A stretch of DNA of 64,000 bases from the NCBI GenBank assembly GCA_049296775.1, contig JBAQTB010000003.1:140766-204765 (forward strand), in the 5' to 3' direction. This document shows positions 6,348 to 18,876 of this stretch, piece after piece; within the stretch, counting starts at the first letter, position 1; every line of letters begins with the position of its first letter. The notes below the pieces were generated by a model. The model was not told where the DNA came from. It saw nothing but the letters and a program-made list of their open reading frames with translations, and searched no databases. A program made the translations under genes and the position numbers. This DNA comes from Patescibacteria group bacterium. GTDB lineage: Bacteria > Patescibacteriota > Patescibacteriia > UBA9934.

Positions 6348-6884
6348 ATGCCAACAGACACGCAAACAGCTGCTGACGTGGGTGGATCAACTCAAGCTGC
6401 AAATATTAATGGTTTGCCGGTGCAAACCTTGGCCATGGTGTTATTGGCGGTGTGGGCAGTGGTGTTAGTGTCTAGGCGATTTTTGCCAAAACCGATCAAA
6501 CGTTTGACGGACGATCAAGTCCAGCGCATTGAAGAAAGTTTACAGACCACACAAGCCTTGGAGAAAAGATTGCGCGAGATCGAAATTGAAAGAGCGGAGG
6601 TGATTAAACAGGCCAGGGTAGAAGCCCTGGAAATTCGGAAACAGGCTGAGGCTGACGCAGTTATTCGCAAACAGGAGATGTTGGACATGGCGCGTCAGGA
6701 GGTCGAAAAGGTGATTCAGTCGGGTAAATTACTCCTAGAGCAGGAGCGCACTGCGATGCTGATTGCTGTCCGCCGAGACTTGGTTGATATTGCGGTGAAG
6801 GCTTCCGCTAAAATTGTGACCGATGGTTTGACGGTGCAGCGATCCCAATCTTTAGCCGAAGAGATGGTGCGTAAACTGACCTAG
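6348..6884 (+). CDS. atpF: F-type ATPase F0 subunit b (stator stalk)
   Basis: One N-terminal TM helix then a long charged helix, 'RIEESLQTTQALEKRLREIEIERAEVIKQARVEALEIRKQAEADA...', co-linear with subunit b. Confidence 0.7.
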   Translation: MPTDTQTAADVGGSTQAANINGLPVQTLAMVLLAVWAVVLVSRRFLPKPIKRLTDDQVQRIEESLQTTQALEKRLREIEIERAEVIKQARVEALEIRKQAEADAVIRKQEMLDMARQEVEKVIQSGKLLLEQERTAMLIAVRRDLVDIAVKASAKIVTDGLTVQRSQSLAEEMVRKLT

Positions 6885-6886
6885 GT

Positions 6887-7276
6887 ATGTCTAAGGACTT
6901 TAAAGTGTTGGCCGACAAGATTGTTAAAGATACGGCTGACTATGCTGCGGCAGATTTGAAAGTGTACCTAGAGGGAGTGGTGGAGCACTTAGCTAGCCGC
7001 GGACAGTTGTTGGAGTGGCGGCAGCTTGAGAAAGAATTGCATGCGGCTTGGAAGCGCAAGCACGGTGCCGCTAAGCTCACGGTGGCCTCGGCGCATCCGT
7101 TGACTGAGACGGCGCTCAAGCATTTAGAAGCTTTGGCACCGGGAGCGGAGTTTGTGCAGGTAGTGGATGAGCGTTTGATGGCGGGTGCGATTGTACGCTT
7201 GGATGATTACCGATTAGACGGGACGGTACTGGGAGCGTTGACGCGGTTAAAGCAGCAATTACGTTATGGTAAATAA
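6887..7276 (+). CDS. atpH: F-type ATPase subunit delta (OSCP), short form
   Basis: C-terminus 'VVDERLMAGAIVRLDDYRLDGTVLGALTRLKQQL' matches the delta/OSCP C-terminal block (E. coli '..[25 protein letters not shown]..'); 129 aa. Confidence 0.7.
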   Translation: MSKDFKVLADKIVKDTADYAAADLKVYLEGVVEHLASRGQLLEWRQLEKELHAAWKRKHGAAKLTVASAHPLTETALKHLEALAPGAEFVQVVDERLMAGAIVRLDDYRLDGTVLGALTRLKQQLRYGK

Positions 7277-8066
7277 GCTAGACATCATCACAGCTTTGCG
7301 CGAACAGGTGCAAACCTTTAAGGCGCAAGCGCATGCCGAAAATGTCGGTACGGTTTTAACGGTGGTGGCTGGGGTGGTGACGTGTAGTGGTTTAGCTGGG
7401 GTGAAGCAATTTGAGGTGGTCGATTTTGGTCCGGGGTTAACTGGGCTCGTGGTTGGTTTAGCTGAGGAGTACGTCACGGTGGTGGTGCTGGGAACAGCAG
7501 ACGGTATTAAAGCAGGAGACACAGTGCGGCAGTCTGGGGCGGGGTTAAGTTTGCCGGTGTCAGAGTCCTTGTGGGGACGCGTTGTGAATGTGCTTGGGCA
7601 ACCGGTGGATGGTTTGGGGGAGATTCTTGCCGCACAGACCGAGCCAATTACTTTAAAGCCAGATTCAAGTTTGTCGTGCCAACGCTTGCAGGTTGAGAAG
7701 AGCTACGCTGCGGCTGAAGTTTTGCGGGTGGTGCAGGAGGGTAAGACGCAGGGGTTGAAGAGTGTGGTCGTGACCATTGGTGAACGCACGGCTAGTTTGG
7801 CGCAGTTGAAAGGAGCCTTAGAGGCGGCGGGTTGCTTGCAAGAGACTTTATTAGTCGTGGCTGGTGCTGCTGAGCCGGTAGCCTTGCGCTATTTGGCGCC
7901 GTTTAGCGCGGAAGCCGTGACGCGATATTTACTGCGGTTAGATGACAAGTTACAATTAGTTTTTGTGGATTTAGCTGCGCATACGCTGGTGAGTCAGAGT
8001 TGGCAGCAGTTGCTAGGCGCAGGAGCTGTTGAGCCCGTCACCTCCGCTCAGTTATTTTTGGATTAA
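7266..8066 (+). CDS. F1 alpha-subunit-like protein, truncated (266 aa), Walker A reduced to 'VVQEGKT', no C-terminal helical domain
   Basis: N-terminal beta-barrel region aligns with AtpA ('ENVGTVLTVVAGVVTCSGL...GRVVNVLGQPVDGLGEIL'); 'VVVTIGERTASL...LLVVAGAAEPVALRYLAPFSAEA' matches AtpA 'IYVAIGQKAST...[21 protein letters not shown]'; about 30 aa spanning the P-loop are missing. Confidence 0.7.
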   Translation: MVNKLDIITALREQVQTFKAQAHAENVGTVLTVVAGVVTCSGLAGVKQFEVVDFGPGLTGLVVGLAEEYVTVVVLGTADGIKAGDTVRQSGAGLSLPVSESLWGRVVNVLGQPVDGLGEILAAQTEPITLKPDSSLSCQRLQVEKSYAAAEVLRVVQEGKTQGLKSVVVTIGERTASLAQLKGALEAAGCLQETLLVVAGAAEPVALRYLAPFSAEAVTRYLLRLDDKLQLVFVDLAAHTLVSQSWQQLLGAGAVEPVTSAQLFLD

Positions 8067-8071: not shown

Positions 8072-9190
8072 GTGGTCAAAAATTTTGTTGCCCAAGTTGG
8101 AGTTAATCAGGTCGATGTCCGGTGCCCGGCTGATGCGCCGTCTTTGTTGAGTGTCTTGGCGGTTAGTAATGGTGACCAGGAATTGCTGTTAGAGGTAGTC
8201 GCGTATTTAGGGGGAGGCTTGGTACGTACTTTGCCGCTCGGGTCGACGACTGGCTTACAGCGTGGGTTAGAGGTTAGATTTGTGAGTAAGAGTTTAAGCG
8301 TTCCGGTTGGTCATGAGCTGCTTGGCAGGCGTATTAATGCACTGGGAAAACCGTTAGACGGGATGGCACCAGTGCAGACTAAGCAATTTGCAGTGAGCCG
8401 TGGCGTGGCCCCAAAGTTAGCTGAGGTAGTTTCCCCGACTAAAATCTTTAGAACTGGAGTGGGTGTGATCGATTTACTCTTTCCGATTCCAGAGGGAGGT
8501 TTGGTCGCCTTGCAATCAAAAACAGGCGTCAGTGCATTGTTTACGCAAGTTTTGCGGGCGTCTGAGGCTAAGTGTGTTTACGTTCTAACCAATGCACGGT
8601 CTAAGCAGGTTGCAGAAGTCATGACGACCTTGGAGCAGGCCCAGGTGATTGCTAAGGCGGTGGTGGTGACGAGTGGCGTGGGTGAGGTGACGGCGCTACA
8701 TAATCAAGCCGTTGACACTGCCTTAACTGTGGCTGAGTCTTTGCGGTCAGTGGCCGGGGTGAGTTTGTGGCTTGATAGTGCAGCAGGTTTAAGCGCGGCC
8801 GCCATGGAGCGCATGGTGTCGACTGCGGCCGGGCCGCTCACGACTTTCTTGCTGGGTGCGCCGCTTGCGAGTTTGGCTACCGACGTGGTGACAGTTGTAC
8901 ATTTTGATGGGGAGTCTAGCGAGTTGGTTGATATCAAGTCTTCACATTCGCATTGGCTAACTGCCAAACAAGTGGGAGCTGAACATTTTGAGGTCGCCAA
9001 TCAGGTGCTGGAGATTTTACGCATGTCAGTCCAGATGAAGGTGGGGGAGAGAGCGCCTGATCCAGCGGTAATCGCTAAAGCTGACAGACTGTGGAGCTAC
9101 TTGCGCGAGTCTAGGGTCGAGATATCAGAGACTGAGGCTTATATTTCGCAGTTAGTGTCTAGGTGTAGAGCTGTTCTGGCTGGGGAGTAA
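8072..9190 (+). CDS. F1 beta-subunit-like protein, truncated (372 aa), catalytic P-loop replaced
   Basis: 'VRTLPLGSTTGLQRGLEV...VPVGHELLGRRINALGKPLDG' aligns with AtpD N-terminus; 'TGVGVIDLLFPIPEGGLVALQSKTGVSAL' aligns with AtpD '[30 protein letters not shown]' but GGAGVGKT is lost. Confidence 0.7.
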   Translation: MVKNFVAQVGVNQVDVRCPADAPSLLSVLAVSNGDQELLLEVVAYLGGGLVRTLPLGSTTGLQRGLEVRFVSKSLSVPVGHELLGRRINALGKPLDGMAPVQTKQFAVSRGVAPKLAEVVSPTKIFRTGVGVIDLLFPIPEGGLVALQSKTGVSALFTQVLRASEAKCVYVLTNARSKQVAEVMTTLEQAQVIAKAVVVTSGVGEVTALHNQAVDTALTVAESLRSVAGVSLWLDSAAGLSAAAMERMVSTAAGPLTTFLLGAPLASLATDVVTVVHFDGESSELVDIKSSHSHWLTAKQVGAEHFEVANQVLEILRMSVQMKVGERAPDPAVIAKADRLWSYLRESRVEISETEAYISQLVSRCRAVLAGE

Positions 9191-9191
9191 A

Positions 9192-9779
9192 GTGATTGCC
9201 AACTGGTGGCAAGCAGCGTATACTTTTGCCAATCAAAAAGTGTTGCGTATGGCTTGGTTGCGCCTGTTGAATCTGTTGTTCTTTGGCCCCAAAGTGACGG
9301 CGTCAAAGAAAAACTATACGGAGACTGAGGGGCGGGAGTTTGCTTTACTTGGAGCGGAGTTACGCGCCTTATTGGCGACTACTCGGTTTGGCAGATCATT
9401 GCGAATTCTCACTGTCTCGGGCGGGTCAAGTAATGCCGAAGAGAGTGAACTCCGAGCTTTAACTAACGCGTATTACGATATCGACCGTTTCGGGTTGAGC
9501 TTTGTGGCTTCTCCCCGGCACGCCGATATCTTATTTGTTACTGGGCCAGTCACGCGTAATTTTGCCGGTGTGCTGAAGGCGGTGTATGCCGCCGTGCCAC
9601 AACCGTGTTTGGTGGTGGCGATTGGGGATGGTGCGTGTACGGGTGGCATTTGGAAAGATTCGTATGCGGTGGTGGGTCCGGTGGCGGCGGTGATCCCGGT
9701 GAATTTGTGTATCCCGGGCGACCCACCTAACCCGACGCAAATTTTACGCGAGTTACTTGGCGCGTTGCGCTCTACCTAA
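9192..9779 (+). CDS. NuoB/HycG-like (hydrogenase small subunit/complex I 20 kDa family) with three of four N2-cluster cysteines replaced
   Basis: 'SPRHADILFVTGPVTRNFAGVLKAVYAAVPQPCLVVAIGDGACTGGIW...IPGDPPNP' aligns with NuoB '[21 protein letters not shown]...ISMGACANSGGMY...IPGCPPRPE'; the CC pair is 'SS', 'GCPP' is 'GDPP'. Confidence 0.7.
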   Translation: MIANWWQAAYTFANQKVLRMAWLRLLNLLFFGPKVTASKKNYTETEGREFALLGAELRALLATTRFGRSLRILTVSGGSSNAEESELRALTNAYYDIDRFGLSFVASPRHADILFVTGPVTRNFAGVLKAVYAAVPQPCLVVAIGDGACTGGIWKDSYAVVGPVAAVIPVNLCIPGDPPNPTQILRELLGALRST

Positions 9780-9784
9780 AATGT

Positions 9785-11803
9785 ATGTCAGGACAAGTGA
9801 TTGCAATTTGCTTGAGTATGTCAGTGCTGGCGTCTGTCATGGCGGCCGCAGCGAGTTTTTGGCCGAGCGGTAAATCGCATAAGCTGACTAGTTGGCTGTT
9901 GGCGGTGGGAGGAGTTTTGGGAGCGGTGGCGGGTTTGCAAATAATGTTGGGTGAGACGCAGACGGTGATGTTGCCGTATTCCTTGTACCCAGTGACAGCT
10001 GTGGATCCGGTCAGTACCTGGCCGTGGTTTTTTGACATGGTCTTTGGCCTAGATAGATTTTCCGCGATTTTTTATACTTTGATCTCGGTGGTGACCGCGA
10101 TGGTCATGGTGTACTCAGTTAAGTTTATCGAAATTAAACGTGAGGCGTATAACTTAAAACTGTACGGGTGCCTTGTGGCGTGTTTGGTGTTGGGTATGCA
10201 GGGGGTTTTACTGTCTACCAACATTTTCGGCTTCATTGGTTTTTGGGAATTAATGGTGTTCTGTATTTGGGGACTATTTTTAGTGACGGGGAGCGTGTCT
10301 GGACAGAGAGCTGGGTTTACCTATTTAGCCATTGCTCACCTGGGCACCGGAGCGATCCTGGCCGGTTTGTTTATTTTGTCTAACGGCGGCTTGCTGAATG
10401 ATTTTGTCACGATTAGCTCAGCAGCCGCAGACTTACCGATGCCGATTTTTGCTGTGGCCTGCGCGTTAATCTTGCTGGGGTTCGGGAGTCAATTAGGGGT
10501 AGTGCCGTTTCATGTGTGGCTGCCGCAATTACAGGTAGAGACGCCCACACCCGCCGCTGCCTTGATTACCGGAGCTGGGTTGGGTGTAGGGGTTTATGGG
10601 TTACTGAGGACGGTGATCTTTTTAGTCCCCACTGTACCTGGCTGGTTTGTGGGCTGTGTTTTGGGGTTTGGGATCTTGACGGCGCTTGTGGGGAGTTTAC
10701 ATGCGGTGGTCGATTTAGACGTAAAACAGACTTTGGGTTATTTTAGCTTAAAAAATGTCGGGTTGCTGTTAATTTTTATTGGCACGGGTTTATTGGCCGG
10801 TTTGCAGGGTAATGCCGAGTTAACGGAAACCGCCTTGTACGCCGGTTTATTTTTATGTTTAGCGCAAGGGGTGCTGCAGACTGCCATGGGGTTGGTGGCT
10901 GGGGTTGCTGAGGAAGCTTTTAAAACGCGAGAGTTAGATCTGATGGGTGGCTTGGCTCAATCTATGCCCAAACTATCTGTAGCGGCGTGCGTGATTGTTT
11001 TAGCAGCTGTAGGACTGCCGCCTTTTGCGCCGTTTATTGCAGAGTGGTCAGTGGTGCAGGCAGCGGTCGGGATTATGGCTACAGCTGAACCGGTGCTCGT
11101 GGTGTCATTGGTGGGTGTGGTAGTGGCGGTGACTTTTGTGACGGGGGTGAGTTTGATGGCGGGCGTTAAGTGGTACGCCGGGATTTTCTTGGCTAGACCA
11201 CGGCAAGTTGTAAGCACAGAGCTGAAAGAACTTGATGGCTATGTCTTAGGGCCAATTGCGGTGGCGGCAGTTTTGAGCGTGTTATTGGCGATGTTCGCCC
11301 CTAGGCTGTTGGCTAAAATGGGTGCCATCCATTTAGCGCCACCTAGTTTGCTGCATCCGGCTTTGGAGACAAGCGGGGGAGGATTAGCTCCGAGCCTGTT
11401 GACCTTAGTGATGGCTGGTGGCGTCTTGGCGCTGCTACTGTTACGGCAATTAATTGTGCGTTCGGGTTCTGTTCGGGTGGTGCCGGCGTGGGATCACGGG
11501 CAGGTGGTGGGTGCCAAAAATGAATATTCAATTACGGGTTTAACCGCGCCGTTTAGGTATTTTTTCCGATTCTTTTTACGGACTCAGAAAGTTGTGGACG
11601 TCCAGGCTGTGCAACTAACTAATCCGTGGGTGGTCACCAAGCACGTGACGTTGGTGGCGGTGCGCCAGTTGACTTACGTGCGGCTTGGTGAGGCTATCAC
11701 CAGGGTTGCTAGTTGTTTGGCGTATTTACAAAATGGCAGTGTCCAGTTTTACGTCTTGCTCATGATTGTGGCTTTGCTCATAACTATGGTGATCGCTTTA
11801 TGA
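9785..11803 (+). CDS. HyfB/NuoL-like antiporter-type membrane subunit (672 aa)
   Basis: Multi-TM protein with 'FHVWLPQLQVETPTPAAALITGAGLGVGVYGLL', a diverged 'WLPDAHxGPTPVSALIHAATMV' NuoL/M/N/HyfB signature; same length as E. coli HyfB. Confidence 0.75.
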   Translation: MSGQVIAICLSMSVLASVMAAAASFWPSGKSHKLTSWLLAVGGVLGAVAGLQIMLGETQTVMLPYSLYPVTAVDPVSTWPWFFDMVFGLDRFSAIFYTLISVVTAMVMVYSVKFIEIKREAYNLKLYGCLVACLVLGMQGVLLSTNIFGFIGFWELMVFCIWGLFLVTGSVSGQRAGFTYLAIAHLGTGAILAGLFILSNGGLLNDFVTISSAAADLPMPIFAVACALILLGFGSQLGVVPFHVWLPQLQVETPTPAAALITGAGLGVGVYGLLRTVIFLVPTVPGWFVGCVLGFGILTALVGSLHAVVDLDVKQTLGYFSLKNVGLLLIFIGTGLLAGLQGNAELTETALYAGLFLCLAQGVLQTAMGLVAGVAEEAFKTRELDLMGGLAQSMPKLSVAACVIVLAAVGLPPFAPFIAEWSVVQAAVGIMATAEPVLVVSLVGVVVAVTFVTGVSLMAGVKWYAGIFLARPRQVVSTELKELDGYVLGPIAVAAVLSVLLAMFAPRLLAKMGAIHLAPPSLLHPALETSGGGLAPSLLTLVMAGGVLALLLLRQLIVRSGSVRVVPAWDHGQVVGAKNEYSITGLTAPFRYFFRFFLRTQKVVDVQAVQLTNPWVVTKHVTLVAVRQLTYVRLGEAITRVASCLAYLQNGSVQFYVLLMIVALLITMVIAL

Positions 11804-12753
11804 GCCCAATTGTTTTAACGATTTTGCAAGTTTGTATGGCGTGCGCCTTGGCGCCGATGACCTTGGGGTTGGTAGCTTTTTTCAAGGCCAGGTTGTTGGG
11901 TAGACACGGTTTACCACCTTGGTCACCGTACTTCAATTATCGAACACTCCTCAAGAAAGAAACTTTGATTCCCGCCTCGGCGTCTTGGCTGTTTGTGGCT
12001 GCGCCCATCATGGTGTTGCTCAGTAGTGGGTTTTTGGTGATGGTGTTGCCGTTATTGACTACTAGCGGCGTGTTCAGCAGCTTATCTAATTTTCTAGTCA
12101 TTGCTGGCGTGCTGGCACTCGGGTCAGTCTTTGTGGTGTTAAGCGGTTTAGACACCGGGAACACGTACTCAGGTTTGGGGTCTAGCCGTCACTTAGTTAT
12201 GGTCGGTTTGTTGGAGCCGACAGTCATTTTAACTTTCGCGGCTTTGGCGTTGTCTACGGGGAGTGGAGAGATCGTCGGCATGCTTGAACATGCGGCGGTG
12301 ACGGGGCAATTGATTGGAACCGCGCCGTATCTGGCCTTGTCACTGCTAGCGTTGGTGCTGGTGTCATTAGCAGAAAATTCACGCTACCCAATTAGTGAGC
12401 CCGGCGCTGAGGCCACCTTAGCCATGGGTCAGGAGGTGACTACTTTTGATTACTCCGGCCCGTTACTGGCCATGCTGGAATACGCGGCCGCGTTGAAGCT
12501 GACAGTGTTTGCGTTGTTGGTAGCGAATTTCATTTTACCGCGGCCGTTACTGACAGATTATGCCGGGGTGGGTGATGTTATGTCTGTCGTCCTGGCCACT
12601 GTGTTGAAATTAATCCTCATGATGATTGCCTTGGCGATTTTAGAATCGTCAACGACTAAGATGAGATTTTACCGCGTTCAAGAGTTTTTGACCGGAGCCT
12701 TTTTCATGGCGTTGTGTGGGTTAGCTTTGGCACTTTTAATGCAACGTTTATGA
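11800..12753 (+). CDS. HyfC/HycD/NuoH-like membrane subunit
   Basis: 'FFKARLLGRHGLPPWSPYFNYRTLLKKE' resembles NuoH/HycD 'ERKxxAxMQxRxGPNxVGxxGLLQPxADxLKLLxKE'; ATG at 11800 overlaps the upstream stop (ATGA); the track ORF starts earlier at 11713. Confidence 0.65.
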   Translation: MSPIVLTILQVCMACALAPMTLGLVAFFKARLLGRHGLPPWSPYFNYRTLLKKETLIPASASWLFVAAPIMVLLSSGFLVMVLPLLTTSGVFSSLSNFLVIAGVLALGSVFVVLSGLDTGNTYSGLGSSRHLVMVGLLEPTVILTFAALALSTGSGEIVGMLEHAAVTGQLIGTAPYLALSLLALVLVSLAENSRYPISEPGAEATLAMGQEVTTFDYSGPLLAMLEYAAALKLTVFALLVANFILPRPLLTDYAGVGDVMSVVLATVLKLILMMIALAILESSTTKMRFYRVQEFLTGAFFMALCGLALALLMQRL

Positions 12754-13412
12754 TCTCTAATTTAACGACCCCTGATGCTGTCAGTATTGCGTGGTCAGTC
12801 ATGTTTTTAGTTGGCGCGTTTTTAGCGGGTGGCAAGTTTAGGCTAGGACAAATTCTCAGATATTACATCTTTCAATCTTTGTGTTTGGTGGGGCTAATGT
12901 TGAGCTTGGCTGAGGTAGCTGATTGGCACGCCTACCTAAGTGCCGCGAGCGTCTTAGTCTTTAGAGCGGTGTTAATGCCGGGACTGTTGATGCTGACTGC
13001 GAATCAATCAGGGGCTAGCGGTCGGTTGTTGTCATTTGTACGGCCAGCGCCTTCATATTTTGTGTCAGGGGTGGCGTTGCTAGCGGCGGTGTTGACCGGA
13101 ATTGCCATCACTCCGCATTTGCCGCAAGCAAATATCATGTTGGTGGTGACGGCCTTTGCTGGAATTTACATGGGCTTAGTCATGGCTGCCATTCGACGAG
13201 ATACTTATTCGCAAGTGATCGGCTTTTTGACCTTTGTGAACGGGATCACGATTTTGGCCGTGACTACGGTTGGCGGTTGGTCGATATTGGAGGAGCTGGG
13301 TATGTTTGTGACAGTGTTGTTGGCCGTATTGTTGTTTAGCTTGTTGTCCCGTAAGTTGAAAGAGCTGTACGCCGTGGAAGATACGGGCATTTTAAAGGAG
13401 TTAGTTGATTAG
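12750..13412 (+). CDS. HyfE-like small polytopic membrane subunit
   Basis: About 220 aa hydrophobic protein at the hyfE position between the NuoH-like and NuoM/N-like genes; ATGA start/stop overlap at 12750. Confidence 0.45.
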   Translation: MISNLTTPDAVSIAWSVMFLVGAFLAGGKFRLGQILRYYIFQSLCLVGLMLSLAEVADWHAYLSAASVLVFRAVLMPGLLMLTANQSGASGRLLSFVRPAPSYFVSGVALLAAVLTGIAITPHLPQANIMLVVTAFAGIYMGLVMAAIRRDTYSQVIGFLTFVNGITILAVTTVGGWSILEELGMFVTVLLAVLLFSLLSRKLKELYAVEDTGILKELVD

Positions 13413-13415
13413 CTT

Positions 13416-14894
13416 ATGTTGCCTGTCTTAATTGCAGTCGTCCTCATCTTAGCCACGGCGAGTGCGTACTTGCCGGTGGGGGAGCGCGTCATCAGGCGAT
13501 TAGGTTTAGCGTTGTCTTTAGTCAGTGTCGGTTTAGTGGGGGCAGCTGTGGTGGGTTGGTTTTTGGGAGTGGATCTAGGCGGTACGGGCCAGGCTTGGCA
13601 GTTGGATAATGTCACCGCTTGCGTGTTGGGATTGCTAGCGATAATTTCCGCTACGACTTCGGTAGTCGCACATCGTTACCTAGAGCAGGAGCTCAAAGAG
13701 AATTTACTTTCGATTACAGAAGTTAAGCATTACTACCGGTTGGTGCCGTTGTTTACGGCGGCTATGTATGTGGCGGTGTGGAGTAATAACGTGGCGGTGA
13801 TCTGGTTGTCCCTCGAGGCCACCACCTTAGCGACGACTTTACTGATTGCGTTTTACCGCAAACGATCAGCCTTGGAAGCGGCCTGGAAATACTTAGTGTT
13901 GAACGCCTTTGGCATGGGTCTCGCCTTAGTCGGTTTGATCTTGTTCGTGTTCGCGTTGACAGGGGGAGCGGACCACGGCACTCAGTTCATGACGAGCTTG
14001 CAGGAGTTGGCAGTGACTGAAGGCGTCAACATCGCACTCTTGCGTTGGGCGTTTGTCTTCTTGTTCATTGGCCTGGGGGCTAAGCTGGGCTTGGTACCCA
14101 TGCACGCCTGGTTACCAGATGCCCATAGCAAAGCGCCATCGCCGGTGTCTGCACTCATGGCAGGCTTGCTCTTGAATGTCGTTTTCATTACCTTGTTGCG
14201 CTTTAGACAGATCGTAGATTTAGCTTTGCTGGACCAGGGTCAGTGGAGCGGGCAATTCTTTTTAGTCTTTGGGTGTTTATCTCTGACTCTGCCTGCGTTA
14301 ATCATGTTGATTCAGAAGAACTACAAACGTTTTTTGTCTTACTCTAGCATTCAGGCCATGGGTGTCATGATGTTTGCAGTTGGTTTGGGTCCAGCGGGCC
14401 TCATCCCGGCGCTCATGTATTTACCTGGTCACGCCTTGCTGAAGAGTGGTTTGTTTTTTGGCGCGGGGGAGATTTTTAATACGTACAAAACTACGGCCTC
14501 TGAAGATATTCCTGATTTGTGGTATCTCTTACCCAAGACAGCGACGTTATTTTTGCTCTTAGCTGTGTGCTTGGTAGGTGTGCCGCCGTCTGCGATTTTT
14601 GTTAGCCAGACCTTGATGTTGGGGTTTGGGTTACGGGAACATTTGGCGATCACCTTATGGGCGACGGTCATGCTGACAGTGGCGGTTTTGACATTGAGCT
14701 ATCAGGTGTATCGTTTAGTCTTTAAATTACCGCTTAAAAAGGCGGAGGTACCCAGGGAGCCATGGAAGCTGGTGCATGTAGGTATGGGTTTGCATTTGCT
14801 GTTGGCGCTCGCCCTCGGACTGTGGTTCTTGACTCCAAGTGGCTTGAACTTCGTTTTAACTTTAGCTGAGGAGCTTAACTCTAACTTACTATGA
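13416..14894 (+). CDS. HyfF/NuoM/NuoN-like antiporter-type membrane subunit
   Basis: 'PMHAWLPDAHSKAPSPVSALMAGLLLNVVFITLLRF' is the canonical NuoL/M/N motif, with the conserved His of 'SALIHAATMV' replaced. Confidence 0.8.
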   Translation: MLPVLIAVVLILATASAYLPVGERVIRRLGLALSLVSVGLVGAAVVGWFLGVDLGGTGQAWQLDNVTACVLGLLAIISATTSVVAHRYLEQELKENLLSITEVKHYYRLVPLFTAAMYVAVWSNNVAVIWLSLEATTLATTLLIAFYRKRSALEAAWKYLVLNAFGMGLALVGLILFVFALTGGADHGTQFMTSLQELAVTEGVNIALLRWAFVFLFIGLGAKLGLVPMHAWLPDAHSKAPSPVSALMAGLLLNVVFITLLRFRQIVDLALLDQGQWSGQFFLVFGCLSLTLPALIMLIQKNYKRFLSYSSIQAMGVMMFAVGLGPAGLIPALMYLPGHALLKSGLFFGAGEIFNTYKTTASEDIPDLWYLLPKTATLFLLLAVCLVGVPPSAIFVSQTLMLGFGLREHLAITLWATVMLTVAVLTLSYQVYRLVFKLPLKKAEVPREPWKLVHVGMGLHLLLALALGLWFLTPSGLNFVLTLAEELNSNLL

Positions 14895-16501
14895 GTACTA
14901 AAGACTTCTTAGCGGATATTTTGGGGATCGTGGTAAGTGAGGAGCGGCCTGGCCAATTAACGGCAAGTGTAGCTAAGGACAAGTTTGCTGACGCAATTGA
15001 TGAACTTGTGAATGCGCGGGGTTTGGTAGCGGGAGTCGAGGCGGAGAGTCAGGAAGGGATGGCGGGAGTTGGTTTGGCGTTAGTGCACATGTTTGCCACG
15101 GATGAGCGGGGGGAGTCTGGGGGGTATGGCGTGCACGTTTTAATTCATGACGATACTGGGCATGCTTGGTTAATGTTGTCGACTAGAGTGTCTGCGGATG
15201 AGCCGAGTTTTCCGGCGGTGACTCCCAGGGTCATGGCAGCGTATTGGTATGAGCGCTACATTCATGACATGTTTGGGATTCGACCTGAGGGGCATCCGGA
15301 TTTGCGCCGCTTGGTGCATCATGAGCATATGCCAAATGAGACTTACCCGTTAAGAAAAGATTTTAAGTGGAACGCTGAGCTTGAGACCGCGGAGAATGCG
15401 TACCCACTCCAAGTTGCCACGGGTGCTGGGGTGTTTGAGCTGACCGTAGGGCCAGTACATGCCGGTGTGGCGGAAGCGGCGCAATTTTGTTTAAGCGTGG
15501 CGGGGGAGCGCGTGATTAGTCTGGACACCAAAGTCTTCTTTGCGCACAAGGGGCTAGAGAAGTTGTTGGAGGGGAAAGAGCCGCTTAGCGTTTTGCCGGT
15601 GATTGAGCGGATAGCGGGAGACGCTGCGCCGTCACATGCCTTGGCATTTTCACAAAGTCTAGAAGCGCTGGCAGACTGTGAGGTGACAGACAGAGCCAAG
15701 GGGCTCAGGACGCTTTTAAATGAGCTGGAACGCATCACACTTCACGTGCATGACCTTGCAGCCGTGGGGGAGGCTGGGACGGGCTACGCGGTCTTAGCGA
15801 GTCACGGGTTTAGGATCGAAGAACGTTTAAGACGTTTGTCTGATGAGCTGTTTGGAAATCGTTTTTGGCGTGGGGTGATTGTACCCGGGGGAGTAGTGCG
15901 GGATTTGAATGCGAATGAGCTCAAGAAAATTGCGATTACAGTGAACGAGGCGATTGAAGAATTGGAGGATTTGGTGAAGTTGGCGTTGAAGTCTGATGGT
16001 TTAAGAGATCAACTGGAGGAAAAGGGTATTTTAAAGCGCGAGGCCGCCTTGGTTTATGGTGCGGTGGGTGTGGTGGCCAGGGCTTCCGGCATCGACAGAG
16101 ATGTCAGACGCGATCATCCTTACGCCGCTTATGACCGCTTTGTGCCGACGATTTCGATTAAGACCAGCGGGGACGTCTATGCCCGACTTCGTCAGCGGGT
16201 TGATGAACTGCTAGAAAGTCAGCGTTTGCTCCAAGAATTGTGTAAGTCTCCCGGCGAGGGGCGATTTTTTGTGAAATGTCAGCCCAAGGATGGGCGAGCT
16301 TGGAGTGCTGTAGAAGGTGGCAGGGGTGAAACTGTGCACGTTATTAGTATCAAGGCCGGGCTGATTGATCGTTACACCATCCGTGGCCCATCCTTTTGCA
16401 ATTGGCCGCTCTTAGCCGAGCTCATGCCAGACAATACTTTATCCGATTTCCCTTTGTGCCTGAGCTCAATGAGTTTGAGTGCTGCTGATTGCGATCTTTA
16501 G
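14891..16501 (+). CDS. Fused NuoC-NuoD / HyfG/HycE-like large subunit lacking the NiFe-ligating cysteines
   Basis: NuoC-like 'ERYIHDMFGIRPEGHPDLRRL'; NuoD/large-subunit-like 'ELTVGPVHAGVAEAAQF'; the N-terminal 'RxCGxCxxxH' site reads 'ERIAGDAAPSHALA' and the C-terminal 'DPCxxCxxH' site reads 'SAADCDL'. Confidence 0.75.
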   Translation: MSTKDFLADILGIVVSEERPGQLTASVAKDKFADAIDELVNARGLVAGVEAESQEGMAGVGLALVHMFATDERGESGGYGVHVLIHDDTGHAWLMLSTRVSADEPSFPAVTPRVMAAYWYERYIHDMFGIRPEGHPDLRRLVHHEHMPNETYPLRKDFKWNAELETAENAYPLQVATGAGVFELTVGPVHAGVAEAAQFCLSVAGERVISLDTKVFFAHKGLEKLLEGKEPLSVLPVIERIAGDAAPSHALAFSQSLEALADCEVTDRAKGLRTLLNELERITLHVHDLAAVGEAGTGYAVLASHGFRIEERLRRLSDELFGNRFWRGVIVPGGVVRDLNANELKKIAITVNEAIEELEDLVKLALKSDGLRDQLEEKGILKREAALVYGAVGVVARASGIDRDVRRDHPYAAYDRFVPTISIKTSGDVYARLRQRVDELLESQRLLQELCKSPGEGRFFVKCQPKDGRAWSAVEGGRGETVHVISIKAGLIDRYTIRGPSFCNWPLLAELMPDNTLSDFPLCLSSMSLSAADCDL

Positions 16502-16530
16502 AGATAGAAGGAAAGAATTTAGAGTTTAAA

Positions 16531-16561
16531 AAAGCCGCTATCGTAGATTCGATAGCGGCTT
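16531..16561. terminator. Hairpin terminator (T-run on minus strand; also ends the plus-strand operon)
   Basis: aagccgctatcg-tagattc-gatagcggctt flanked by aaaaa; minus-strand read gives the hairpin followed by tttttt. Confidence 0.6.
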
Positions 16562-16584
16562 GAGCGGGATGGTCCCGGTACGGT

Positions 16585-16797
16585 CTAGTTTTGCGCACGT
16601 CTCATGACGGCGACATAGGCTGACTCATCAGGTGATGCATAGATGATCTCCCAGCCGGCAGCCCGTCGTCGGGCGAGTCTGGCGCGTACCTGTTCGCGTA
16701 CGCGATTCTCTTGGTGTTTGTGTAGTAGGACGATGACGCTCCCGTGGAACGCCACCAAAAGGACGGCGCCGATTTTCACGGCAAGTAAGATATCCAC
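16585..16797 (-). CDS. Small hypothetical membrane protein (70 aa)
   Basis: ORF with one hydrophobic helix 'ILLAVKIGAVLLVAFHGSVIVLL' then an Arg-rich tail; a terminator lies immediately downstream. Confidence 0.3.
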   Translation of the reverse strand: MDILLAVKIGAVLLVAFHGSVIVLLHKHQENRVREQVRARLARRRAAGWEIIYASPDESAYVAVMRRAQN

Positions 16798-16884
16798 TTT
16801 GATCTCCTACGGTTGGTGAATCTGCACAGGAGAGCATACGCTGGGTCAACATTTACGTCTAGGTTGAGACCGGAAGACAATGCG

Positions 16885-16919
16885 TTTTGCGACGCAAGCA
16901 GCTAGCGCATTTTTCATCC
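16885..16919 (+). repeat. 35-bp direct repeat, copy 1 (ttttgcgacgcaagcagctagcgcatttttcatcc)
   Basis: 33/35 identical to the copy at 18645-18679; both lie on the plus strand upstream of plus-strand genes and bracket a GC-richer cassette. Confidence 0.7.
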
Positions 16920-17024
16920 TCGAGGATGGCCGGCGAGCATCTAAATTCTTTCCTATTCACTCTGTGAATAAGCCCTTGCGTTGCTTAGGCGAGCAGGTAA
17001 GCTAGCGGCACAGCAGGAGGCGAC

Positions 17025-17801
17025 ATGGCGACTGATCGCGCTGAAACATTGTTGACAGAGGGGCGGGTGTGGCTACCGGTGGCGGGTTTACAGGAGGTAT
17101 TGACCGAGGTGCTACGTCGGTTTTCTGACGATGTCTTGGCTAATATCGACTGGGATGACCTCAGAGCAGGTAAATACACCTTCTGGTGTCAGGAGCCGCA
17201 GGAGCAGGGCACTGACGAGCCGGATGATGGACTGATCTACAAGTGCGCAACCGACAAGAGTGATCCTTCCATTGCTCGAACCGGCAAGCGACCAGATCAC
17301 AAAGTGTATATGCAGTGGCGTTGGCGTACTGAACGCTTACTGCGGTCTCGACCAAGTCTGTATAAGCTCGAGTTCAAGGTCTTCTTTGAGATCATGGCTG
17401 AGCTTCAAGAGTTGTTAACTCCGCATATCGACAAGATGTGGCGAGAGCTCCAACTCTTGCGGCCTGAGCTGCAGGGCTTTGAGGTCGATCAGGAGCTGAG
17501 TAGCATACGCGTGATGAGGTACTTGGGAGTCCGGGACGATGAGTCGAGCCTTATCGGTAAGACGCACACGGATCGTGGAGCGTTTACTTGCCACCTGGGC
17601 GACAGTGCTCCGGGGCTAGTAGTTCAGAACTCCAAGGGCGAGTTTGAGTTGGTGCCAACAACTCCTGAACAAACGCTGATTTTTACAGGTGATGCTTTGG
17701 CACGCCTCACGGATCGCCCGGCAGTGGTGCACGGTGCGGCGGCAGGCGCAGATGCGAAGAGGTCGATAGTGGTGGCGTTTGTGTGGATTAAGGCTAAGTA
17801 G
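17025..17801 (+). CDS. 2-oxoglutarate/Fe(II)-dependent oxygenase superfamily protein
   Basis: 'GKTHTDRGAFTCHLGDSAPGLVVQN...GEFELVPTTPEQTLIFTGDALARLT...AVVHGAA' fits the HxD...H 2OG-FeII_Oxy core (HTD...GGLQV...W..V.P..G.LVVN.GD). Confidence 0.55.
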   Translation: MATDRAETLLTEGRVWLPVAGLQEVLTEVLRRFSDDVLANIDWDDLRAGKYTFWCQEPQEQGTDEPDDGLIYKCATDKSDPSIARTGKRPDHKVYMQWRWRTERLLRSRPSLYKLEFKVFFEIMAELQELLTPHIDKMWRELQLLRPELQGFEVDQELSSIRVMRYLGVRDDESSLIGKTHTDRGAFTCHLGDSAPGLVVQNSKGEFELVPTTPEQTLIFTGDALARLTDRPAVVHGAAAGADAKRSIVVAFVWIKAK

Positions 17802-17888
17802 TTGATCTACACACTTTCCGACCGGGTTGGACTTCATGTTCAGACCCGGTTTTCTATTAAAAGCAACGACCCGCCACGAGGTGGCGGG

Positions 17889-18491
17889 TCAGGAGGAAGG
17901 GTTGGCGATCTCACGAATGATCTGGGAAAGCACATTCACAGTCACGCCGAGGTAGTCGGCTAGGTGACCAAGTTCGTCCTGGTCCGGATCAGCGACACTG
18001 CCATTCAAGAGCAGTCGTAGCTTGCTTGGTCCCAGGTCTGATCCAGCATGAGAGATGTACAGCTCTCTCAGATTGTTGTGATCGGGGATTTCTTGCAGGT
18101 AGGCCAGGACCGGGGTGTTGAGGTTGGGTCGGCCTGGAAAGTGGAAGGTAATATCGATCTTTGGGGAGGGGTTGGCGATCTCTCTGATGATCTTAGTGAG
18201 TACATTCACAGTCACGCCTAGGTAGTCGGCTAGGTGACCAAGTTCGTCCTGGTCCAGGTACGCGACGTTACCGTCTAACAGTAGGCGTAACTTTTTTGGT
18301 CCCAGGTCTGATCCAGCATGAGAGATGTACAGCTCTCTCAGATTGTTGTGATCGGGGATTTCTTGCAGGTAGGCCAGGACCGGGGTGTTGAGGTTGGGTC
18401 GGCCTGGGAAATTGGTGGTGATGTCGATTTTTCTAGGCGGTGGTTTTTCCTGTCTTTTACCTTCGTGATCGTCATCTCGTTTACGTTTCAT
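17889..18491 (-). CDS. Hypothetical protein with two near-identical tandem ~90-aa repeats, each resembling an XRE-type HTH
   Basis: Repeat units '...FPGRPNLNTPVLAYLQEIPDHNNLRELYISHAGSDLGP.KLRLLL.G.VA..DQDELGHLADYLGVTVNVL..IIREIANPS' occur twice; the tail 'DELGHLADYLGVTVNVL' resembles the end of HTH_XRE domains. Confidence 0.5.
   Translation of the reverse strand: MKRKRDDDHEGKRQEKPPPRKIDITTNFPGRPNLNTPVLAYLQEIPDHNNLRELYISHAGSDLGPKKLRLLLDGNVAYLDQDELGHLADYLGVTVNVLTKIIREIANPSPKIDITFHFPGRPNLNTPVLAYLQEIPDHNNLRELYISHAGSDLGPSKLRLLLNGSVADPDQDELGHLADYLGVTVNVLSQIIREIANPSS
17897..18436. repeat. Intragenic tandem direct repeat, 2 x ~270 bp
   Basis: A 110-nt block (ggtcccaggtctgatccagcatgagag...gggtcggcctgg) is identical at 18028-18137 and 18298-18407; flanking parts of each unit are more diverged. 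Confidence 0.8.
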
Positions 18492-18557
18492 TTGAATCTC
18501 CCTGTTCCATTTGTTAGCAATGGAAGACTAAGATTAGCAGATTTATCAACTAAAGTC

Positions 18558-18597
18558 AAAAAAAAGACACGCCGTCGTCTTGTGTGACGACGGCGTA
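18558..18597 (-). terminator. Rho-independent terminator oriented on the minus strand
   Basis: acgccgtcgtc-ttgtgtg-gacgacggcgt hairpin (11-bp stem); on the minus strand it is followed by tctttttttt. Confidence 0.5.
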
Positions 18598-18644
18598 CGG
18601 GTCGAAGGAGCGTAGCTAAGATCTATCCCAGAAGTACACTAATC

Positions 18645-18679
18645 TTTTACGACGCAAGCAGCTAACGCATTTTTCATCC
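18645..18679 (+). repeat. 35-bp direct repeat, copy 2 (ttttacgacgcaagcagctaacgcatttttcatcc)
   Basis: See copy 1 at 16885-16919. Confidence 0.7.
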
Positions 18680-18832: not shown

Positions 18833-18876
18833 AAGATCTTTCCTTAGTCCTCTGCAGACGGTACACTTCCCGTACT

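What the first reader, a model, noticed from the sequence alone, without database searches (positions are those of the whole stretch)
14891..16501. Fused NuoC-NuoD/hydrogenase large-subunit homologue without NiFe ligands
A NuoC-like motif 'ERYIHDMFGIRPEGHPDLRRL' is followed by a NuoD/large-subunit-like 'GPVHAGVAEAAQF'. The position of the N-terminal NiFe motif RxCGxCxxxH reads 'ERIAGDAAPSHALA' and the C-terminal DPCxxCxxH reads 'SAADCDL'. This matches the pattern described for Ehr-type (energy-converting hydrogenase related) complexes that have lost hydrogenase chemistry. Combined with the cysteine-poor NuoB homologue, the module probably carries out neither H2 nor quinone redox chemistry.
Basis: partly seen in the sequence, partly recalled or inferred. 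Interest (0 to 1): 0.65.

Follow-up and report, generated by a model that had tools for sequence, protein, structure and literature searches.

The report
Cofactor-less hydrogenase-like (Ehr) large subunit
This gene encodes the large subunit of a hydrogenase/complex-I-like membrane complex that has lost every metal-binding residue; this type is already described in Candidate Phyla Radiation (CPR) bacteria, but here it lies next to an ATP synthase operon stripped of its catalytic parts.

Summary
ORF 14891-16501 is a fused NuoC-NuoD/HycE homologue (Pfam E 1e-38 and 1e-20; E. coli HycE E 1e-59; AlphaFold model TM 0.89 to HycE). All four NiFe cysteines are replaced (A242, A245, S530, D533), and the NuoD quinone-site Tyr and His are absent.

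The co-operonic NuoB-like subunit has lost all four [4Fe-4S] cysteines. No NuoI/HycF-type ferredoxin motif occurs anywhere in the 64 kb. "Neither H2 nor quinone chemistry" is therefore supported.

The window is a Patescibacteria (CPR) MAG. The protein sits in a monophyletic CPR Ehr clade (bootstrap 60/60). Jaffe et al. 2020 (PMC7304191) already reported that clade as lacking the NiFe cysteines, so the core finding is a new member of a known kind.

Three further results:
- The whole six-gene module is cofactor-free, yet its former active site is strongly conserved across the family.
- In 9 of 17 related loci the module directly follows the F1Fo ATP synthase operon.
- In this genome that operon is reduced to b, delta and P-loop-less alpha/beta genes that still look coding, and the Ehr subunits have lost several conserved charged residues.

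The most likely function is redox-independent ion translocation linked to the ATPase, impaired or repurposed here. That function is inferred, not shown.

The parts
14891..16501 (+). Fused NuoC-NuoD/HycE-like large subunit (EhrL-like), 536 aa; this is the finding
   Evidence: Pfam PF00329, PF00346 and PF00374. HycE 7z0s_E, E 1.4e-59. AF2 pLDDT 86 and TM 0.89 to HycE. Its start overlaps the stop of the upstream gene by 4 nt.
15605..15637 (+). Former L1 NiFe motif, E239-RIAGDAAPS-H249; the ligand columns hold A242 and A245
   Evidence: Pairwise alignment to HycE RvCGiCgfaH. Family alignments: the family consensus is R[ILV]SGD[MA][AS].
16472..16498 (+). Former L2 NiFe motif, S528-LSAADCDL-536; the ligand columns hold S530 and D533
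   Evidence: The family consensus is L[ND]LSYSGTD[LM]. The window is the only one of 119 homologues with MSLSAADCDL.
15449..15487 (+). Beta1-beta2 loop, GPVHAGVAEAAQF
   Evidence: The loop reads GPIHAGIIEPGHF in 98 of 119 homologues, and also in genuine NiFe relatives. The window has P196A and H198Q. This is the lowest-confidence segment of the AF2 model (residues 188-194).
9192..9779 (+). NuoB/HycG/MbhJ-like small subunit without [4Fe-4S] ligands. The ORF starts at GTG 9192; the start matching relatives is probably ATG 9249.
   Evidence: Pfam PF01058, E 4.7e-21. MbhJ 6cfw_J, E 3e-25, with the ligand columns reading S80, E83, G147 and D177.
9785..11803 (+). HyfB/NuoL-like antiporter-like subunit, 672 aa
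   Evidence: Pfam PF00361. Best NCBIfam hit is hydrogenase 4 subunit B, 286 bits against a cut-off of 667. Family-conserved K236 (TM7 Lys), R315, H361 and K392 are all Gln in the window.
11800..12753 (+). NuoH/HycD/MbhM-like subunit
   Evidence: Pfam PF00146. HycD 7z0s_D, E 1.6e-19. Conserved R27, D200 and E207 are changed in the window.
12750..13412 (+). HyfE-like (NuoK-related) membrane subunit, 220 aa
   Evidence: No Pfam hit. NCBIfam hydrogenase 4 membrane subunit, E 1.1e-8, below cut-off. Orthologues in L086, L087 and L089 carry weak PF00420 hits.
13416..14894 (+). HyfF/NuoN-like antiporter-like subunit, 492 aa
   Evidence: Pfam PF00361, E 3.7e-50. MbhH 6cfw_H, E 3.3e-24. The TM5 Glu and TM7 Lys are kept. 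The TM12 Glu is Gln, and 'SIEHMG' reads 'SIQAMG'.
6348..7276 (+). ATP synthase b (6348-6884) and delta/OSCP (6887-7276)
   Evidence: Pfam PF00430 and PF00213. TatD lies directly upstream, and no a or c subunit gene precedes them.
7266..8066 (+). Alpha-like remnant, 266 aa: P-loop region deleted and C-terminal half missing
   Evidence: Alignment to intact alpha subunits. TIGR00962 atpA scores 143 bits against a cut-off of 484. In-frame codon-usage score is 0.305, within the housekeeping range.
8072..9190 (+). Beta-like remnant, 372 aa: Walker A GGAGVGKT is replaced by SKTGV plus a 6-aa deletion, and the catalytic segment is deleted
   Evidence: Alignment. It is a singleton among 5.8 billion proteins, with the next best hit at 31% identity. 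Neutral-decay simulation expects 11.5 stops, whereas none is seen. AF2 pLDDT is 81.

Best explanation
**Shown.** ORF 14891-16501 is the large subunit of a six-gene, Hyf-like 'energy-converting hydrogenase related' (Ehr) complex of a Patescibacteria/CPR bacterium. The gene order is NuoB' - HyfB' - NuoH' - HyfE' - HyfF' - NuoCD'. The complex carries no recognisable redox cofactor site:
- no NiFe ligands in the large subunit;
- no [4Fe-4S] ligands in the small subunit;
- no ferredoxin-like subunit;
- no quinone-site Tyr or His.
It therefore cannot act as a hydrogenase or a quinone reductase.

**Inferred, for the family.** Typical CPR members keep three things: the Lys/Glu residues of both antiporter-like subunits, the NuoH loop, and a strongly conserved former active site with its beta1-beta2 loop. 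The operon usually directly follows the F1Fo ATP synthase operon. From this, the complex most likely works as a redox-independent ion-translocating module, an Mrp-like proton or cation/proton transporter. It would use or reshape the ion gradient that the ATPase builds in these fermentative cells. The soluble cap would be retained as a gating or structural element.

**Inferred, for this genome.** The system is impaired or being repurposed. The ATP synthase operon is reduced to b, delta and P-loop-less alpha'/beta'. The Ehr subunits have lost about 21 of 144 family-conserved charged or His positions, including the HyfB' TM7 Lys. All ten genes nevertheless remain open, tightly packed and coding-like.
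For: **Identity and fold.**

**Ligand loss, large subunit.**. Among 119 nearest homologues no sequence keeps both CxxC pairs: the ligand columns hold Cys in 1, 2, 0 and 0 sequences. C1 is Ser in 109, C3 is Ser in 117, and C4 is Gly in 115.

**Ligand loss, small subunit.**. The motifs GSSNAEE, GDGA and GDPP occur in all CPR loci, whereas most non-CPR Ehr and hydrogenase loci read GSCNGCE, GxC and GCPP.

**No ferredoxin or maturation genes.** No CxxCxxCxxxC occurs in any frame of the 64 kb. No Hyp genes are present.

**Phylogeny.** The CPR clade has 60/60 bootstrap support, matching Jaffe et al. 2020.

**Conserved transport residues in typical members.** L085-L088, L002 and L006 keep them.

**ATP synthase adjacency.** It is directly upstream in L001, L004, L006, L083, L085, L086, L087, L091 and the P0024 contig. 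In L088 it is 2.7 kb away on the opposite strand.

**Divergence of the window copy.**
- 25 deviations at 175 columns that are at least 90% conserved, against 0-4 for the nearest relatives.
- Per-subunit tables.
- Housekeeping neighbours show the genome is no more distant from L083 and L085 than those two are from each other.

**ATP synthase remnant.**
Against: - No transport assay, expression data or structure exists for any member, so the ion-translocation role is inference from retained residues and gene neighbourhood.
- The complex lacks MrpB/E/F/G-type subunits, and no Na+ site can be pointed to.
- The c subunit of the one relative examined (L088) reads as H+-type ('EAV', no Ser/Thr), which gives no support for Na+/H+ conversion (motif reading from my own knowledge).
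- ATP synthase adjacency is absent in 7 of 17 loci (L002, L025, L044, L047, L049, L089, L090). Several of the positive loci share wider synteny, so part of the signal may be inherited gene order.
- The strong conservation of the former active site and of the IIEPGHF loop suggests that something still happens in the cap. A pure antiporter model does not explain this.
- Only 64 kb of the genome was visible, so an intact second ATPase elsewhere cannot be excluded.
Confidence: 0.55

Rival explanations
1. The locus is a non-functional relic. The ATP synthase and the Ehr module are both being lost in this reduced genome, and the open frames are transient.
For: - The alpha'/beta' genes have lost their P-loops and catalytic segments, and gamma, epsilon, a and c are absent from the window.
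- Beta' has no counterpart in 5.8 billion proteins.
- The window's Ehr subunits show K-to-Q, E-to-Q and H-to-Q changes at conserved transport positions.
- The window's large subunit is the only one of 119 with a degraded ex-active-site motif and loop.
Against: - All ten ORFs are intact, with 4-nt overlaps or gaps of a few nt.
- Neutral decay of a beta gene to 30% identity gives a mean of 11.5 stop codons, and 0 of 300 simulations were stop-free.
- Codon-usage frame scores of alpha', beta' and all Ehr genes lie in the range of housekeeping genes.
- The Ehr subunits are only about 5-10 identity points more diverged than expected.
- AF2 models of NuoCD' and beta' are confident.
Confidence: 0.2
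2. The complex is still a redox enzyme. It would receive electrons from an unlinked partner, for example a formate dehydrogenase as proposed for FDH-Ehr, or use an unconventional cofactor bound by the conserved Ser/Asp/His residues of the former NiFe site.
For: - The former active site (R-x-S-G-D..SH and LSYSGTD) and the IIEPGHF loop are highly conserved across the family.
- Ehr complexes elsewhere are suspected to couple cytoplasmic redox reactions to charge translocation (PMC6349859).
Against: - The small subunit, which is the only electron entry route in this enzyme superfamily, has none of its four cluster cysteines in any CPR locus.
- There is no NuoI/HycF homologue and no ferredoxin motif in the window.
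- No conserved redox gene lies next to the operon in 17 loci.
- In this window the conserved Ser/Gly positions are themselves altered.
Confidence: 0.07
3. The membrane arm powers a non-redox reaction at the cap, by analogy with the DAB (DabA/DabB) and cyanobacterial NDH-1 Cup systems. Those systems couple antiporter-like subunits to CO2 hydration.
For: - The cap pocket is conserved without metal-ligand cysteines.
- A weak CsoSCA-like (carbonic anhydrase) Pfam hit lies directly downstream of the operon in the Falkowbacteria locus L087.
- The precedents are from my own knowledge.
Against: - The downstream gene is not conserved in other loci, and the hit is weak.
- No catalytic residues can be proposed.
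- Nothing comparable is present in the window.
Confidence: 0.06
4. The Ehr module is a physical partner of the ATP synthase stator. In this genome the retained b, delta and crown-bearing alpha'/beta' would form a static, non-rotary assembly docked on the Ehr membrane arm.
For: - Adjacency of the atp and ehr operons recurs in three different arrangements.
- What survives here is exactly the peripheral stalk plus the alpha/beta N-terminal barrel. The barrel is less diverged (0.45-0.49 identity) than the nucleotide-binding domain (0.29-0.34).
- The remnants are still coding-like.
Against: - Both domains of alpha'/beta' are far more diverged than the roughly 0.9 identity expected at this phylogenetic distance.
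- The arrangement is a singleton.
- There is no interaction evidence of any kind.
- Adjacency is not universal.
Confidence: 0.08

Closest known systems
CPR clade of Ehr large subunits (Jaffe et al. 2020, BMC Biol 18:69, PMC7304191)
   Same: The host group is the same. The large-subunit clade is monophyletic (60/60 bootstrap here). Both CxxC pairs are lost. The conclusion that the protein cannot interact with H2 is the same.
   Different: That paper treats only the large subunit; 'ATP synthase' and 'antiporter' do not occur in its text. Three points here are additional: the Cys-less small subunit, the atp adjacency, and the extra divergence of this copy. This copy is unique in having MSLSAADCDL and GPVHAGVAEAAQF.
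Ehr complexes of Geobacter sulfurreducens (EhrA-EhrS), Acidobacteria, ammonia-oxidising archaea, comammox Nitrospira and Margulisbacteria
   Same: The large subunit is group-4-like and lacks the NiFe cysteines. It is co-encoded with NuoL-like, HyfE-like, NuoH-like and small subunits. The function is unknown (PMC7894505, PMC10432482, PMC6349859).
   Different: In the non-CPR Ehr loci examined here, the small subunit keeps all four cluster cysteines and follows the large subunit. Exceptions are the nuoB-first loci L044 and L047: both lack the GxC and GCPP cysteines and retain at most one Cys of the first motif. In the CPR type the small subunit is cofactor-free and comes first in the operon.
E. 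coli formate hydrogenlyase HycE / hydrogenase-4 (Hyf)
   Same: HycE is the best sequence and structure match (E 1.4e-59, TM 0.89). It has the same NuoC-NuoD fusion. The membrane subunits here best match HyfB, HyfE and HyfF models.
   Different: Identity is 27%. There is no NiFe site, no C-terminal extension for protease processing, no HycF/HyfH or HyfA ferredoxins, and no formate dehydrogenase. All NCBIfam scores are far below their cut-offs.
Respiratory complex I NuoCD / NuoB / NuoH
   Same: The fold is shared (TM about 0.85 to E. coli NuoCD) and so is the module architecture.
   Different: The quinone-site Tyr and His are absent. The N2 cluster ligands are absent. There are no NuoI, E, F or G subunits. 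The NuoD equivalog score is 200.9 against a cut-off of 360.
Mrp-type multisubunit cation/proton antiporters (and the Mrp-like modules of MBH/MBS)
   Same: It has two MrpA/D-like subunits and a NuoK/MrpC-like subunit. It would have to work without redox input, as Mrp does.
   Different: It keeps a NuoH-like subunit and a soluble hydrogenase-derived cap. It lacks MrpB/E/F/G. Antiport has not been demonstrated for it.

Membership tests
Group 4 [NiFe] hydrogenase | L1 motif RxCGxCxxxH in the large subunit | tested here: not met
   The motif reads R240-I-A-G-D-A-A-P-S-H249. Both Cys columns hold Ala.
Group 4 [NiFe] hydrogenase | L2 motif (D/E)xCxxCxx(R/H) at the C-terminus | tested here: not met
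   The motif reads L-S530-A-A-D533-C-D-L. The ligand columns hold Ser and Asp, and the only Cys is shifted by one position.
Group 4 [NiFe] hydrogenase | Small subunit with four Cys binding the proximal [4Fe-4S] cluster | tested here: not met
   The four columns hold S80, E83, G147 and D177, against MbhJ and HycG.
Group 4 [NiFe] hydrogenase | Large-subunit fold and NuoH-like plus antiporter-like membrane partners | tested here: met
   TM 0.89 to HycE. PF00146 and two PF00361 proteins are in the operon.
Group 4 [NiFe] hydrogenase | Hyp maturation genes and endopeptidase in the genome | tested here: inconclusive
   None occur among the annotated ORFs of the 64 kb window. The rest of the genome was not visible.
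[quoted passage not shown] | Group-4-like large subunit lacking the NiFe cysteines | tested here: met
[quoted passage not shown] | Operon with small subunit, NuoH-like, HyfE-like and NuoL/N-like subunits | tested here: met
[quoted passage not shown] | Placement in the CPR-specific Ehr clade | tested here: met
   In the NJ tree of 85 large subunits the CPR clade has 60/60 bootstrap support, and the window's subclade has 59/60. This agrees with PMC7304191.
[quoted passage not shown] | Small subunit retaining its Fe-S cluster, as in the Acidobacteria and archaeal Ehr loci examined here | tested here: not met
   All four Cys are lost in the window and in every CPR locus. I do not know whether the formal definition of Ehr requires the cluster.
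Complex I (NuoD/NuoB) | Quinone-site Tyr (T. thermophilus Nqo4 Y87 / Y. lipolytica Y144) and loop His (H38/H95) | tested here: not met
   These positions align to G243 and A194 in the alignment to NUCM 9iho_D. The residue roles are from my own knowledge.
Complex I (NuoD/NuoB) | Curated equivalog scores | tested here: not met
   NuoD NF004739 scores 200.9 against a cut-off of 360. NuoB NF005012 scores 98.6 against 116.
Mrp cation/proton antiporter | MrpA/D-like subunits with the conserved TM5 Glu and the TM7, TM8 and TM12 Lys/Glu | tested here: inconclusive
   Typical CPR members keep these residues. In the window, the HyfB' TM7 Lys, TM8 position and TM11 His/Lys, and the HyfF' TM12 Glu, are replaced.
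Mrp cation/proton antiporter | MrpB, E, F and G subunits | tested here: not met
   The operon has six genes, and none of them is an MrpB, E, F or G homologue.
F1Fo ATP synthase (adjacent genes 6348-9190) | Walker A P-loops in alpha and beta; gamma, epsilon, a and c subunits | tested here: not met
   The P-loops are deleted. tblastn with a, c, gamma and epsilon from relatives finds nothing in the window.

The most novel reading that the evidence does not exclude
The CPR-wide, completely cofactor-free Ehr complex would be a redox-independent descendant of a membrane hydrogenase that works with, or on, the F-type ATP synthase. In this genome, a selected 'stator-only' remnant (b, delta and P-loop-less alpha'/beta') would have become part of a ten-gene operon with it. 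Together they would form a membrane assembly that is neither rotary nor redox-driven.
Probability: 0.12. Interest if true: 0.8.

Novelty: new member of a known kind. Interest (0 to 1): 0.42.

Why it matters
The core observation does not change what is known: CPR Ehr large subunits without NiFe cysteines were published in 2020.

The value lies in the context.
- **A natural dissection of the complex-I machine.** A complex-I/hydrogenase-type machine that has lost every redox site, yet keeps its coupling loop, former active site and proton-channel residues under strong conservation, separates 'redox' from 'ion translocation'. It could show what the cap and the NuoH interface do on their own.
- **A testable role in CPR energetics.** Its frequent position directly behind the ATP synthase operon gives a testable hint about how fermentative ultra-small bacteria manage their membrane potential.
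- **A possible ATPase-less lineage.** The gutted but still coding-like ATP synthase in this genome may mark a lineage that has abandoned rotary ATPase function. That bears on how dependent such cells are on a host.

Tried and rejected
1. **Normal constraint on the alpha'/beta' crown.** I first read the N-terminal barrel of alpha'/beta' as evolving under normal constraint. I rejected this after calibration. The window genome is as close to L083 and L085 as those are to each other, and alpha is 95% identical between L001 and L083. Both domains are therefore strongly accelerated, the barrel only less so.
2. **Ferredoxin-type subunit or motif.** I searched all six frames for one and found none.
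3. **Other atp genes in the window.** tblastn with a, c, b, delta, alpha, gamma, beta and epsilon from relatives found only the remnants.
4. **Other genomes with a degenerate beta'.** None was found; the nearest hits are normal beta subunits at 31% identity or less.
5. **Na+ signature in a relative's c subunit.** I looked for one to support Na+/H+ conversion. It reads as H+-type.
6. **Promoter and terminator scans** of 6000-17100 were not above the shuffled expectation.
7. **Conserved downstream partner gene.** None was found. The window has an unrelated 2OG-Fe(II) oxygenase and a tandem-HTH gene there.
8. **Literature.** Nine full-text searches found nothing on a Cys-less CPR small subunit or on atp-ehr linkage. 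The one directly relevant paper (Jaffe 2020) was reached by DOI. The library lacks most subscription journals (for example Marreiros et al. 2013 BBA), so absence there is weak evidence.
9. **A 'nuoB-first' superclade** joining CPR with L025, L044, L047 and L049 is only weakly supported (21/60).

Full report
**1. The observation**

- Pfam finds a NuoC domain (PF00329, aa 64-162, E 1.2e-20), a NuoD domain (PF00346, E 1.5e-38) and the N-terminal part of the NiFe hydrogenase large-subunit model (PF00374, E 1.1e-6).
- The best solved relative is HycE of the E. coli formate hydrogenlyase (7z0s_E, E 1.4e-59). It is followed by fused NuoCD proteins, MbhL and MbsL.
- An AlphaFold2 model built on 34 homologues is confident (pLDDT 86, pTM 0.89). 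It superposes on HycE with TM 0.89 and rmsd 2.3 A, and on E. coli NuoCD with TM about 0.85.

**2. The ligands**

*Large subunit.* The HMMER alignment to HycE pairs RvCGiCgfaH with RiaGdaapsH, so the two L1 cysteines correspond to A242 and A245. The alignment ends at HycE GSLD = window SSMS. This places the HycE L2 cysteines opposite S530 and D533, and the only nearby Cys (C534) is out of register.

In a MAFFT alignment of the window with the large subunits of 80 related loci, genuine hydrogenases keep both pairs:
- ERICGACSxSH with CYSCLDR in Firmicutes;
- ERICGICGFIH with DPCFSCTER in Hyf/Hyc-type Acidobacteria.

A large set from Acidobacteria, Methanomassiliicoccales, Nitrososphaera, Chloroflexi and CPR instead has E[RS]ISGDSxxSH with LSYSGTD[RL].

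*Quinone site.* Against Y. lipolytica NUCM, the quinone-site Tyr aligns to G243 and the beta1-beta2 loop His to A194 (the roles of these residues are from my own knowledge).

*Small subunit.* The NuoB-like protein (9192/9249-9779) aligns to MbhJ and HycG with S80, E83, G147 and D177 at the four [4Fe-4S] ligand positions.

*Other cofactor carriers.* No CxxCxxCxxxC motif occurs in any reading frame of the 64 kb. No Hyp or other hydrogenase-related gene appears among the annotated ORFs.

**3. Where it comes from and what it belongs to**

The protein is identical to a GenBank entry from a 'Patescibacteria group bacterium' MAG on a 383-kb contig. Its nearest relatives (47-64% identity) are from Uhrbacteria, Falkowbacteria, Moranbacteria, Peregrinibacteria and unclassified CPR.

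The gene is the last of six tightly packed or overlapping genes: NuoB', HyfB', NuoH'/HycD', HyfE', HyfF', NuoCD'. The membrane subunits best match the NCBIfam hydrogenase-4 B, E and F models, but all scores are far below the curated cut-offs.

In a neighbour-joining tree of 85 large subunits:
- the CPR sequences form a clade with 60/60 bootstrap support;
- the window groups with L001, L081, L083, L085 and L004 (59/60);
- Hyc/Hyf-type hydrogenases form the outgroup.

This is the clade that Jaffe et al. 2020 reported as monophyletic, Ehr-related and lacking the metal-binding cysteines, 'likely cannot interact with H2' (PMC7304191). Ehr complexes in general are known from Geobacter, ammonia oxidisers and Margulisbacteria and have no established function. 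The core finding is therefore a correct recognition of a published type.

**4. What the family looks like beyond the large subunit**

- In most non-CPR Ehr loci the small subunit keeps GSCNGCE, GxC and GCPP and follows the large subunit.
- In all CPR loci, and in L044, L047 and L049, it comes first in the operon and reads GSSNAEE, GDGA and GDPP or similar.
- L025 (Acidobacteria) has the CPR gene order but keeps the cysteines.

The CPR type is thus entirely cofactor-free.

It is nevertheless strongly constrained. Among 119 nearest homologues the former ligand columns are S (109), M/A/S, S (117) and G (115). The motifs R[ILV]SGD.. and L[ND]LSYSGTD[LM] are nearly invariant, and the coupling loop reads GPIHAGIIEPGHF in 98 of 119, the same sequence as in genuine NiFe relatives.

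Typical CPR members also keep the canonical antiporter-subunit residues: the TM5 Glu, the TM7 Lys, the TM8 Lys in HyfB', the TM11 His/Lys, and the TM12 Glu.

**5. Gene neighbourhood**

| Arrangement | Loci |
|---|---|
| Operon directly follows atpA-G-D-C | L001, L004, L006, L083, L085, L086, L087, L091, and the JGI contig carrying P0024 |
| Complete atp operon 2.7 kb downstream on the other strand | L088 (Peregrinibacteria) |
| No atp genes within the flanks | L002, L025, L044, L047, L049, L089, L090 |

Sources. The adjacency is frequent and occurs in three arrangements, but it is not universal. Part of it may be inherited synteny.

**6. What is special about this window**

Relatives with the same downstream synteny (UvrD/AddA-like, DciA, MreBCD, PBP2, GreA, LysRS) have intact alpha (495-505 aa), gamma, beta (453-462 aa) and epsilon genes.

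The window has b (6348-6884), delta (6887-7276), a 266-aa alpha' and a 372-aa beta'. TatD lies directly upstream, and no gamma, epsilon, a or c gene occurs anywhere in the 64 kb. Alpha' has lost the P-loop region and its C-terminal half. Beta' has SKTGV plus a deletion in place of GGAGVGKT, and it lacks the catalytic DNIFRF...GYQPTLATEMG segment. Beta' is unique among 5.8 billion proteins.

Housekeeping neighbours show that the window genome is no further from L083 and L085 than those are from each other:

| Protein | window-L083 | window-L085 | L083-L085 |
|---|---|---|---|
| MreB | 0.91 | 0.88 | 0.88 |
| UvrD | 0.76 | 0.76 | 0.79 |

At that distance alpha is 95% identical between L001 and L083. 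The identities of alpha'/beta' to intact orthologues, 0.45-0.49 in the barrel and 0.29-0.34 in the nucleotide-binding domain, therefore represent extreme acceleration.

These are nevertheless not neutral pseudogenes:
- Simulated neutral decay of a beta gene to 30% identity yields on average 11.5 in-frame stops, with 0 of 300 runs stop-free.
- The in-frame codon-usage scores of alpha' (0.305) and beta' (0.220) lie within the range of 13 housekeeping genes (0.216-0.354).
- AF2 predicts a compact truncated fold for beta' (pLDDT 81).

The Ehr genes are only mildly accelerated: window-L083 identity is 0.42-0.65 against 0.52-0.72 for L083-L085. The changes, however, hit conserved positions:
- 25 deviations at 175 columns conserved in at least 90% of sequences in the large subunit, against 0-4 in the nearest relatives.
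- 19 of 99 in HyfB', 12 of 81 in NuoH' and 11 of 100 in HyfF', against 0-3 in L001 and L085.
- HyfB' K236Q, R315Q, H361Q and K392Q; NuoH' R27A, D200S and E207T; HyfE' E175V; HyfF' E313Q and H314A; NuoCD' P196A, H198Q, R200C and D499G.

Only one other locus, L004 from an Uhrbacterium, is comparably diverged, and its ATP synthase beta gene is intact.

**7. Mechanism**

*Shown:*
- Electron entry through the small subunit is impossible.
- H2 and quinone sites are absent.
- The family is under strong purifying selection.
- Transport residues are kept in typical members.

*Inferred:* the complex is a redox-independent ion-translocating device. It is most simply an Mrp-like proton or cation/proton transporter that works on the gradient set up by the ATPase, with the cap kept as a gating or structural element.

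The strong conservation of the former active site is not explained by this model. It leaves room for a non-redox reaction or ligand at the cap.

For this genome, the loss of ATPase catalysis together with K/E/H-to-Q changes in the Ehr channels points to an impaired or repurposed system. I put the identity and cofactor-loss statements at about 0.95, the ion-translocation role for the family at about 0.45, and impairment in this genome at about 0.5.

**8. Verdict**

The type is already published for CPR, so this is a new member of a known kind.

The secondary observations are not in the literature I could search, and they are the part worth following up:
- a fully cofactor-free module with a conserved ex-active site;
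- linkage to the ATP synthase operon;
- a gutted yet still coding-like ATP synthase remnant in the same operon.

Noticed in passing
window 6348-9190: The ATP synthase operon is reduced to b, delta, a 266-aa alpha-like gene and a 372-aa beta-like gene. Both of the latter lack P-loops and C-terminal parts. Gamma, epsilon, a and c are absent from the window. The remnants stay open and have normal in-frame codon usage, so they are not neutral pseudogenes. Beta' has no counterpart in 5.8 billion proteins.
   Followed up: yes
L001, L004, L006, L083, L085, L086, L087, L091 (upstream of the NuoB-like gene); L088 14269-21015: In 9 of 17 related loci (these eight plus the JGI contig carrying P0024, for which no DNA was returned), the six-gene cofactor-less Ehr operon directly follows atpA-G-D-C. 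In the Peregrinibacteria locus L088 a complete atp operon lies 2.7 kb downstream on the opposite strand.
   Followed up: partly
L088 14269-21015 (minus strand): The Peregrinibacteria atp operon has the order beta, epsilon, AtpI-like, a, c, b, delta, alpha, gamma. This resembles N-ATPase gene order but includes a delta subunit. Its c subunit reads as H+-type.
   Followed up: no
window 16502-18876: There is an insertion relative to L083 and L085, where UvrD/AddA follows the Ehr operon directly. It holds a 2OG-Fe(II) oxygenase family gene (17025-17801, +) and a 200-aa protein made of two near-identical HTH-containing halves (17889-18491, -).
   Followed up: partly
L087 11688-12791: A 367-aa gene with a weak carboxysomal carbonic-anhydrase-like (CsoSCA_cat) Pfam hit lies directly downstream of the Ehr operon in a Falkowbacteria genome. 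It is not conserved in other loci.
   Followed up: no
L004 (Uhrbacteria nzgw374) 1075-8346: This is a second strongly diverged Ehr operon (29 of 99 conserved HyfB' positions changed; loop reads GPVHHRVAESVHY). The ATP synthase beta gene in front of it is intact and 92% identical to that of L083.
   Followed up: partly
L087 6938-8530 and L089 6757-8355: In these loci the NuoH-like and HyfE-like genes are called as one fused 530-aa product (PF00146 plus PF00420).
   Followed up: no
window 1-64000 (turning point about 33-44 kb): GC skew is strongly positive (0.1-0.26) up to about 33 kb and is near zero or negative over most of the window beyond that. Gene orientation changes with it. The cumulative skew maximum suggests a replication terminus or origin inside the window.
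   Followed up: no
window 45563-47299: A PriA-like ORF of 578 aa gives only weak hits to the 3' DNA-binding domain and Helicase_C. No hit to the N-terminal helicase/ATPase core was listed.
   Followed up: no
L025 (Acidobacteria RIFCSPLOWO2_12_FULL_68_19) 4192-11428: This locus has the CPR-type gene order (small subunit first) and a Cys-less large subunit, but its small subunit still has all four cluster cysteines. It is a possible intermediate between classical Ehr and the cofactor-free CPR type.
   Followed up: partly
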